From contig OX597834.1 in assembly GCA_951406725.2 (NCBI GenBank), forward strand, positions 6,944,001-7,008,000: 64,000 nt of DNA, read 5' to 3'. Source of the DNA: Octopus vulgaris (lineage: Eukaryota). The first letter of the stretch is position 1. The number at the start of each line of letters is the position of its first letter. Positions 17,031 through 18,556 of this stretch are shown in pieces. The notes under the pieces are model-generated. The model was not told the DNA's origin and did not search any database. It saw only the letters and a list, made by a program, of their open reading frames with translations. A program made the position numbers and the translations under genes.

Positions 17031-17375
17031 GTGTCTTGTATCTGAACAGGTTAGAGACTTATATTTATTACAGCATTAAATTACAGAATATAATCACACC
17101 TGAACATATACAAGATACGTACATCTACATAAATACATACACAGTGTGACATTCAGGTTTATGTACGAGGGTGGGCTGAGAAGTTTGTTGGTTGACTTTG
17201 AAGGAGTGATGCTAGAAATGTGAAATCTTGCATGAATCAATTTTAAATCTCATTAATAACTGCATTGGTTCTTTCTAGGTAAACAAGCATGACTGTTCAA
17301 AGAAGAGTTCAAATGTATTTAGTAGTGACTTCTGTTTGAAATAGACAAAAGTTGGCATCATGGTGTTATCAAGTA

Positions 17376-18501
17376 TGTAGTGACGTCATATTCCAGTGTG
17401 CGCACACGCAACGTCATTCTTCAGTGTGCGTGTGCAGAACGTCCTTCTTCAGTGTGCGTGTGCGGGGTTGGAACCTTCTGGAACCTTCTGGAAAGACATA
17501 AGGAAGTTCCCTCATGCACATGCGCTAGAGACTGAAGAATAAATTCTATAGCGTTCCTTAATCACGTCGGGGTCACCACTGTAAAGGGAACTGGTTGCTT
17601 CTTTACACTTTTGGGGTGCAACTTGGGTGCAACATAATTTCCTTTCTTTTTGTTTCTAGAAACTACCAGTCAGGAACGAAACGCAAGTTAAAAATATATA
17701 CAATTCTTTATTCTCTTGGTTCAACAATGAAACACGATGGTATGCTGGTATCCACCTAGTTCAACACAGCAAGGCTGAATTCAAACGTTTGTAAGCTTTA
17801 CAGCAATTCAGCAGCAATAGAACAGGTTAAATCCTAAGCGTCTGGGACAGGAGAATAGGCTGATCACACGTTTAAAAATATACGTCCTTTCTCTCCTATC
17901 GCGGTGCCTCAAGTCCCCGACGCTATTAAGGAACGCTATGGAATTTATTCTTCAGTCTCTAGCGCATGTGCATGAGGGAACTTCCTTATGCCTTTCCAGA
18001 AGGTTCCAGAAGGTTCCAACCCCGCACACGCACACTGAAGTCATTCTTCAGTGTGCGTGTGCGGTACGTCCTTCTTCAGTGTGCGTGTGCGGGGTTGGAA
18101 CCTTCTGGAACCTTCTGGAAAGGCATAAGGAAGTTCCCTCATGCGTTCCTTAATAGCGTCGGGGACTTGAGACACGGCGATAGAAGAGAAAGGACGTATT
18201 TTTAGATGTGTGATCAGCCTATTCTCCTGTCCCAGACGCTTAGGATTTAACCTGTTCTATTGCTGCTGAATTGTTGTAAGAAGCTTACAAACGTTTGAAT
18301 TCAGCCTTGCTGCGTTGAACTAGGTGGATACCAGCATACCATCGTGTTTCGTTGTTGAACCAAGAGAATAAAGAATTGTATATATTTTTAAACTTGCGTT
18401 TCGTTCCTGACTGGTAGTTTCTAGAAACAAAAAAAAAAGGAAATTATGTTGCACCCAAGTTGCACCCCAAAAGTGTAAAGAAGCAACCAGTTCCCCTTAC
18501 A
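17376..18501. mobile_element. Rearranged LTR-retrotransposon LTR (TG..CA, 4-bp TSD AGTA) with internal inverted copy
   Basis: AGTA|TGTAG..TTACA|AGTA; 17580-18040 is the reverse complement of the LTR pieces on either side; AATAAA near 18367. Confidence 0.85.
17561..17578 (-). other. 18-nt primer-binding site complementary to the tRNA-Trp 3' end
   Basis: Minus strand TACA-G-TGGTGACCCCGACGTGAT; plus strand ATCACGTCGGGGTCACCA equals the metazoan tRNA-Trp 3' end with CCA. Confidence 0.85.
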
Positions 18502-18556
18502 AGTACCTTGCAGAAAAACGGTTTAGCCTCCAAGGACATGAATGCGACTCTCTCCC

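What the first reader, a model, noticed from the sequence alone, without database searches (positions are those of the whole stretch)
17376..18501. LTR folded back through its own tRNA-Trp primer-binding site: a fossil of aberrant plus-strand transfer
Seen: structure TG-A-[PBS]'-B'-A'-A-B-CA with a clean AGTA TSD. The left junction is exactly the 18-nt PBS, and the LTR has an internal mimic (ATAGCGTCGGGG vs ATCACGTCGGGG) at the switch point. Established: plus-strand strong-stop DNA ends after copying 18 nt of the primer tRNA. Inference: strong-stop DNA annealed to the mimic in its own LTR, extended to a new CA end, and the product was integrated, giving a coding-free palindromic LTR element.
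Basis: partly seen in the sequence, partly recalled or inferred. Interest (0 to 1): 0.72.

Follow-up and report, generated by a model that had tools for sequence, protein, structure and literature searches.

The report
Retrotransposon end copied with two U-turns
This 1,126-base insertion is a scrambled end-repeat of a jumping gene that holds an inverted copy of itself plus 18 bases matching a tryptophan tRNA; it likely arose when the copying enzyme doubled back over its own new DNA and primer and then jumped to a look-alike site, and the same layout occurs at three more places in this genome.

Summary
Observation confirmed. Window 17376-18501 reads LTR(1-187) + inverted tRNA-Trp PBS (18 nt) + C + inverted LTR(533→72) + LTR(38→533, 35 nt deleted), between AGTA duplications. 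The parent is a Ty3/gypsy-type family (533-nt LTR, 4-bp TSD) whose PBS normally leads into a leader, not into A'. The same A-PBS' junction occurs at one other locus (C14) with another fold point and other subfamily alleles. A second Trp-primed family shows the same layout twice, landing on an exact ATCACG. So this is a recurrent reverse-transcription error, not a spreading element. More likely the nascent minus strand turned back, copied its primer to the 18-nt stop, and mis-transferred to U3 on another plus-sense template. Inverted pairs of LTR ends mark 5 of 137 family loci. The scan noted a similar junction elsewhere in this genome (e1-9828399). Verdict: a new variant of a known kind of error, likely a fossil of self-priming, which HIV work regards as a dead end.

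The parts
17372..17375 (.). left target-site duplication AGTA
   Evidence: family TSD is 4 bp; other copies of the host repeat hold AGTA once
17376..17562 (+). LTR bases 1-187 (A; inferred U3), starting TG; the last two bases AT are shared with the tRNA copy
   Evidence: 95% to solo LTR L007; alignment
17561..17578 (-). 18-nt primer-binding site for tRNA-Trp(CCA), inverted relative to the left LTR piece
   Evidence: identical to tRNA nt 59-73 + CCA of gene L121; same PBS follows normal 5' LTRs
17579..17579 (-). 1-nt spacer (G on the minus strand) between LTR end and PBS, as in normal 5' LTRs
17580..18040 (-). inverted LTR 72-533 ending in CA: the inferred copy-back arm
   Evidence: 96% to L007; pairs with the right arm
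17915..17926 (-). tRNA-tail mimic (LTR 186-197) in the inverted arm
   Evidence: 10 of 12 match, best site in the arm
18029..18074 (.). central U-turn: LTR 72 (minus) joined to LTR 38 (plus); 7-nt CGCACAC microhomology offset by one base; 34-nt loop of the palindrome
18040..18501 (+). LTR 38-533 with a private 35-nt deletion, ending CA: the inferred first-made minus strand read on its complement
   Evidence: the deletion junction is unique in the genome
18153..18164 (+). tRNA-tail mimic in the right arm
18502..18505 (.). right target-site duplication AGTA

Best explanation
The element is one aberrant, non-coding LTR of a tRNA-Trp-primed Ty3/gypsy-type retrotransposon, likely made in a single round of reverse transcription with two strand reversals and then likely inserted by the family's integrase. 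Shown: the order of the pieces, the full 18-nt PBS, the mimic at the junction, the TSD and the recurrence. Inferred steps: (1) minus-strand synthesis starts at the tRNA and runs from LTR 533 to about 38; (2) the 3' end turns back onto minus-strand DNA at LTR 72 (its own strand, or in this copy possibly the sister strand) and copies it to the primer; (3) copying stops after 18 tRNA bases at m1A58; (4) this PBS-ended DNA anneals to the mimic at the U3/R border of another plus-sense template, most likely the co-packaged RNA, and copies U3 to base 1; (5) polypurine-tract priming makes the other strand, giving a TG...CA unit with one U3 and one U5 end; (6) it integrates, directly or as a provirus later reduced to a solo LTR. 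It is a dead-end copy, not a spreading element.
For: The A-PBS' junction occurs at exactly 2 loci; C14 has another U-turn (188/277), a 10-nt U3 deletion and other subfamily alleles, so the events are independent. Second family: L134 (335 nt, TSD AGGC) and L152 (499 nt, TSD CTGT) have the same layout and land on an exact ATCACG just downstream of a TATA-like box; L090 appears to land at that family's other ATCACG. In 4 of 4 complete elements there is a U-turn and the PBS-side arm is the shorter (462/496, 257/346, 14/70, 72/171; arm lengths read and tabulated), as self-copying requires. Both family-1 junctions keep PBS bases 15-16 that mismatch the mimic, instead of crossing over in the 8-nt perfect core, which points to a fixed DNA end. 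U-turns without the U3 jump also exist: L109, L110, L111 (two U5 ends, 4-bp TSDs) and L058 (U-turn, PBS, leader). L109 and C14 turn at the same site, where the minus-strand tip pairs 11 of 12 with earlier sequence of its own strand. Arms share rare variants: LTR 377 in C14 and 478 in the window, each 0 of 26 other copies; the 478 pattern occurs at 2 other loci. Window arm divergence 10 of 424 lies within the 0.2-2.9% of 9 5'/3' LTR pairs. Self-priming of minus strong-stop DNA and the m1A58 stop are described for HIV-1 (PMC6088434, PMC12657518, passages).
Against: The window's arms differ at two 2-nt indels that segregate in the family (LTR 230-231: 16 vs 10 of 26; 313: 15 vs 11 of 26) and show 5 indel events against 0-3 in LTR pairs; their mutual distance (15) equals the distance to the nearest other copy (15, 16). 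Pure self-copying does not explain that; a second template or later conversion is needed. The window's own U-turn has weak homology and is not among the top 15 self-priming sites listed. In L090 the copy-back differs from the first arm at one base in 14. The transcription start was not mapped, so 'U3/R border' is inference. No provirus with two aberrant LTRs was found. 4 of 4 for arm length is only p = 1/16.
Confidence: 0.7

Rival explanations
1. One reading: true plus-strand strong-stop DNA annealed to the mimic (own LTR or a sister template) and was extended to a new CA end; the central inversion came from a separate later switch.
For: L043 is a complete LTR + PBS + inverted leader with TSD AATG, so true plus-strand strong-stop DNA does mis-transfer onto plus-sense templates in this family. 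The window's U-turn homology (CGCACAC) reads better if the switch happened on the top strand, and its arms look like two templates. Note e1-9828399 describes a whole LTR + PBS + inverted U3 elsewhere (not located by me).
Against: The predicted 738-nt two-U3 product is absent (0 of 2); 4 of 4 complete elements need an extra U-turn; C14, L134 and L152 would have had to lose most of the LTR; L109 has the C14 U-turn with no PBS at all.
Confidence: 0.14
2. A normal integrated element was rearranged in place by replication template switching at microhomologies (inverted triplication), keeping the original TSD.
For: All junctions carry some microhomology; the LTR has native inverted repeats; the arms could have been converted later.
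Against: Needs a break exactly at PBS base 18 with no leader base in 4 of 4 elements, against the 8-nt core in family 1; 5 of 12 family-1 PBS sites break at that base; L109-L111 need an inverted U5 end placed precisely at the TSD; 5 of 5 inverted pairs face U5-outward.
Confidence: 0.08
3. Two separate insertions (nested, opposite orientation) or an integrase autointegration inversion produced the structure.
For: The inner TG at 17580 is a real LTR end; inversion circles from autointegration are described (PMC7197481, passages); the arms differ at family polymorphisms.
Against: The four bases before 17580 (CCAC) are PBS and spacer and are not repeated after 18501; neither internal junction lies at a processed CA end; two insertions within 1.2 kb are expected 0.01 times among 152 ends under uniform placement, 5 were seen.
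Confidence: 0.03
4. Assembly artefact from fold-back long reads.
For: Long palindromes are a known artefact class (recalled); no public contig bridged the internal junctions.
Against: Arms differ at 10 substitutions and 5 indels; clean TSD; same junction on another chromosome with other alleles; 56-nt contigs in runs X1 and X6 (two studies) match the flank-LTR junction without a difference, though with 30 and 17 bases on the two sides they fall short of the tool's bridging rule.
Confidence: 0.02

Closest known systems
Self-priming (fold-back) of HIV-1 minus-strand strong-stop DNA (review PMC6088434, passages read)
   Same: The nascent minus strand pairs with its own earlier sequence and is extended back towards the primer.
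   Different: The review calls the products dead ends for strand transfer and says they are not detected in endogenous reactions. Here such products appear integrated with TSDs, some after a further jump through the copied PBS; U-turns are not confined to the strong-stop end.
Aberrant first- and second-strand transfers in defective HIV-1 proviruses (PMC12657518 and PMC9278108, passages read; Pulsinelli and Temin 1991 seen only as a reference)
   Same: Misaligned transfer of DNA ending at the PBS; m1A58 as the stop; integrated products.
   Different: The passages seen describe deletions and asymmetric LTRs; 'invers' and 'self-prim' have 0 occurrences in PMC12657518. Here the strand polarity flips twice and the product is an LTR-only palindrome.
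Autointegration inversion circles of LTR retrotransposons (PMC7197481, passages read)
   Same: Inverted parts of one element.
   Different: Those are integrase joints at processed LTR ends in circles; the junctions here are at the PBS end and inside the LTR.
TRIMs / short non-autonomous LTR elements (PMC10886601, passages read)
   Same: Short, non-coding, TG...CA, 4-bp TSD, PBS present.
   Different: No two direct LTRs with PBS and PPT between them; each structure is single-copy.
tRNA-like sequence in HIV-1 U3-R (Piekna-Przybylska 2010, seen as a reference and one sentence in PMC6468702)
   Same: A primer-tRNA look-alike near the U3/R border.
   Different: Here it is 12 nt (family 1) or 6 nt (family 2), decays in relatives (8-9 of 12 in L118 and L036), and is shown only as an error site.

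Membership tests
Ty3/gypsy LTR retrotransposon (parent family) | TG...CA LTRs with short TSD | tested here: met
   533-nt LTR; 4-bp TSD in 18 of 27 loci
Ty3/gypsy LTR retrotransposon (parent family) | tRNA PBS after the 5' LTR, purine tract before the 3' LTR | tested here: met
   PBS-Trp; G-rich tract before 3' LTRs L004, L015
Ty3/gypsy LTR retrotransposon (parent family) | pol order RT-RNase H-integrase | tested here: met
   RVT_1, RT_RNaseH, Integrase_H2C2 in that order in L038; RNase H, H2C2, rve in L036 (3 of 5 frames had a hit)
Ty3/gypsy LTR retrotransposon (parent family) | clade placement by RT tree | not tested
   no tree built
   PBS-side arm is LTR 72-533 or 277-533; the other end is U5
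Self-primed minus-strand product | copy-back arm shorter than the first-made arm and running to the primer | tested here: met
   4 of 4 complete elements
Self-primed minus-strand product | both arms from one template | tested here: inconclusive
   C14 and L109 arms are each other's nearest sequence; window, L110 and L111 arms are not clearly so
Self-primed minus-strand product | U-turn at the transcription start (strong-stop end) | not testable with these tools
   only contigs were available; two U-turns at LTR 188-193, the window's at about 38
TRIM / propagating non-autonomous element | two direct LTRs around PBS and PPT; many alike copies | tested here: not met
   inverted layout; 2 loci with different parents and fold points
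MITE / foldback DNA transposon | terminal inverted repeats and amplification as a unit | tested here: not met
   left end is U3, right end U5; U5-U5 forms L109-L111 are each unique
Autointegration inversion | internal joint at a processed CA end with a 4-bp duplication | tested here: not met
   joints at PBS base 18 and at LTR 72/38
Nested insertion | inner element with its own TSD | tested here: not met
   CCAC before 17580 is not repeated after 18501

The most novel reading that the evidence does not exclude
Fold-back (self-primed) minus-strand DNA, regarded as a dead end from HIV work, is regularly finished and integrated in an animal germ line: about 4% of one family's loci are such U-turn products, in at least two families they are rescued by a jump from the copied tRNA tail to a look-alike at the U3/R border, and this route turns LTR retrotransposons into inverted-repeat elements and long hairpin-RNA templates that could silence their own family.
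Probability: 0.35. Interest if true: 0.7.

Novelty: new variant of a known kind. Interest (0 to 1): 0.5.

Why it matters
If right, the genome holds an in vivo record of a reverse-transcription side reaction known mainly from the test tube, with positions and frequency readable from sequence. It gives a route from LTRs to palindromic elements with TSDs that annotation tools would misfile as MITEs or nested insertions. The window copy keeps U3 in front of a roughly 430-bp near-perfect stem, so it could yield hairpin RNA against its family; that is untested. It has no shown function for the host.

Tried and rejected
No tRNA gene in the window and no other family copy in it. First duplex-energy scan was badly anchored and discarded, replaced. 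Searches for a source lineage of the window's arms: the three clustered substitutions at LTR 205-217 and the 35-nt deletion are unique. No RNA holder listed. Logan contigs are too short to bridge the internal junctions; only part of the element was laid, so its centre and right junction were not checked in other samples. My first reading of L006 as holding an inverted LTR piece did not hold when the stretch was refetched. Left out of the counts: L103 (inverted match runs 5 nt into the flank), L071/L072 (100% inversion, possibly assembly), L068 and L099/L100 (old or too complex), L166 (degraded), L090 (U3 piece breaks off). C14's TSD is CATA/CATG inside a (CATA)n repeat and is weak evidence. 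Literature: 10 searches listed no paper on integrated fold-back LTR palindromes; most subscription and older papers are outside the library, two primary papers were not held, and no supplements were read. Scan notes: by words and by sequence nothing relevant; by place one related note.

Full report
Setting. The window is G000:C21:6944001-7008000 of a 2.8-Gb genome, rich in microsatellites and interspersed repeats. I take it to be an octopus from genome size and from other notes of the scan; this is inference.

Observation. Self-alignment and comparison with a natural solo LTR give: AGTA, LTR 1-187, inverted PBS (17561-17578), C, inverted LTR 533→72 (17580-18040), LTR 38→533 with a 35-nt deletion (18040-18501), AGTA. 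The 18 bases equal nt 59-73 of a tRNA-Trp(CCA) gene plus CCA, and the next tRNA base is A58. The mimic at LTR 186-197 matches 10 of 12 and is the best 3'-anchored site in the arm; 8 of 2000 simulated LTRs do as well. It is weaker in relatives (9 of 12 in L036, 8 of 12 in L118), so it is not required by the family. Other copies of the host repeat run from AGTA directly into sequence like the right flank in all four runs laid.

Parent. The family has 231 LTR 3' ends at up to one mismatch, a 533-nt LTR and 4-bp TSDs (18 of 27 loci). Two-LTR copies carry RT, RNase H and integrase in Ty3/gypsy order. Of 63 LTR-end/PBS matches (all 63 read), I assigned 12 to this family by eye; 7 continue into the normal leader and 5 break at PBS base 18. 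The parent therefore does not have A' after its PBS.

Recurrence. The A-PBS' junction occurs at two loci only: the window and C14:18997653-18998437. C14 is 785 nt, turns at LTR 188/277, and carries other subfamily alleles in both U3 and the arms, so the two arose separately. Among 152 listed exact LTR ends (of 155), merged into 137 loci, 5 are inverted pairs within 1.2 kb, all with U5 facing outward, against 0.01 expected under uniform placement. Three of them (L109, L110, L111) are U5-to-U5 palindromes with 4-bp TSDs and no PBS; L109 turns at the same site as C14. L058 adds a U-turn followed by PBS and leader. A second Trp-primed family (LTR about 1,283 nt) has two complete elements of the window's layout, L134 and L152, among 30 loci read. 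Both land on an exact ATCACG at LTR 246-251, the complement of the last six PBS bases; L090 appears to land at the other ATCACG of that LTR.

Mechanism. Read on the minus strand, the window element is TG-B'-A'(to 38), a turn, A(from 72)-B-CA-G-PBS, a second turn, A'(187 to 1)-CA. That is the path of one DNA strand begun at the tRNA. In 4 of 4 complete elements the arm beside the PBS is the shorter, as expected if it was copied from the first. Both family-1 junctions keep the PBS bases that mismatch the mimic rather than crossing in the 8-nt perfect core, so the DNA end was likely fixed at base 18, the m1A58 stop described for HIV-1 (PMC12657518, passages). The strand that carries the PBS lacks LTR 1-71 (window) or 1-276 (C14) in plus sense, so U3 came from another molecule, most simply the co-packaged RNA. 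Priming at the purine tract would then give a unit with one U3 and one U5 end. Whether it integrated directly or as a provirus later reduced to a solo LTR cannot be told. These steps are inferred; only the product is seen.

Results against this reading. The window's arms share a rare variant (LTR 478) and their 10 of 424 substitutions fit the 0.2-2.9% range of 9 LTR pairs. But they differ at two indels that segregate in the family, have 5 indel events, and are no closer to each other than to the nearest other copy. Its U-turn has weak homology. A turn onto the sister minus strand, or later conversion, is needed for this copy. The transcription start is unmapped. The internal junctions were not bridged by public contigs; the left flank junction matches 56-nt contigs in two studies, short of the tool's bridging rule.

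Known systems. Self-priming of minus strong-stop DNA is described for HIV-1 as an in vitro dead end not seen in endogenous reactions (PMC6088434, passages). Faulty transfers at the PBS are described in defective proviruses as deletions or asymmetric LTRs (PMC12657518, PMC9278108, passages). Autointegration inversions (PMC7197481, passages), TRIMs (PMC10886601, passages), MITEs and nested insertion each fail a defining feature. Passages of PMC3187697, PMC12789967, PMC6894440 and PMC6468702 added background only. Ten searches listed no report of integrated fold-back LTRs, within a library that lacks most subscription and older papers; no supplements were read.

Verdict. It works like a self-primed minus-strand product rescued by a PBS mis-transfer; it is a derivative of a Ty3/gypsy family and not a member of any spreading element class. 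New variant of a known kind; interest 0.5.

Noticed in passing
L043 (G000:C2:204573xxx), 580 nt: Whole LTR + PBS + about 60 nt of inverted leader + TTTACA, TSD AATG: a true plus-strand strong-stop mis-transfer onto a plus-sense template.
   Followed up: partly
L109 C1:194650636-194651155; L110 C4:18573810-18574255; L111 C5:78231013-78231411: LTR-derived palindromes with two U5 ends and 4-bp TSDs (AGTT, GTTT, AATC); they look like MITEs but each is unique.
   Followed up: yes
L049 (C1:5881386), L044, L062, L059, L045: Other joins at or just after the PBS: back into the LTR (tandem duplication with two PBS), to the LTR end, or into leader or internal sequence.
   Followed up: partly
L167, L168, L170, L172, L175, L176: tRNA-Trp 3' halves ending in CCA, most with T or G in place of A at position 58: possible reverse-transcribed tRNA copies with an m1A misincorporation mark; several are followed by ATTGTAAC, perhaps an LTR end (read-through past the PBS).
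   Followed up: no
L004, L006, L015, L021, L025, L003, L012: A subfamily has a tandem duplication of the first 45-73 nt of the LTR joined by ...CACCTT, probably from a misplaced plus-strand start.
   Followed up: no
L099/L100 (C20:28156000-28161500) and L068 (C14:32534242): Complex or old loci with several PBS copies and inversions in other Trp-primed families.
   Followed up: no
L071/L072 (C17:61881064-61882660): Two PBS sites inside a 100% identical inverted repeat of at least 1,455 nt: a recent inverted duplication or an assembly artefact.
   Followed up: no
window 17160-17375 and 18502-18545: The target is a high-copy host repeat; its start at about 17164 (TACGAGGG) recalls a mariner-type end (recalled, untested).
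   Followed up: partly
G000:C6:58378997-58461520: A cluster of about 17 matches to the tRNA-Trp 3' end; one (L121) was confirmed as a tRNA-Trp gene.
   Followed up: partly
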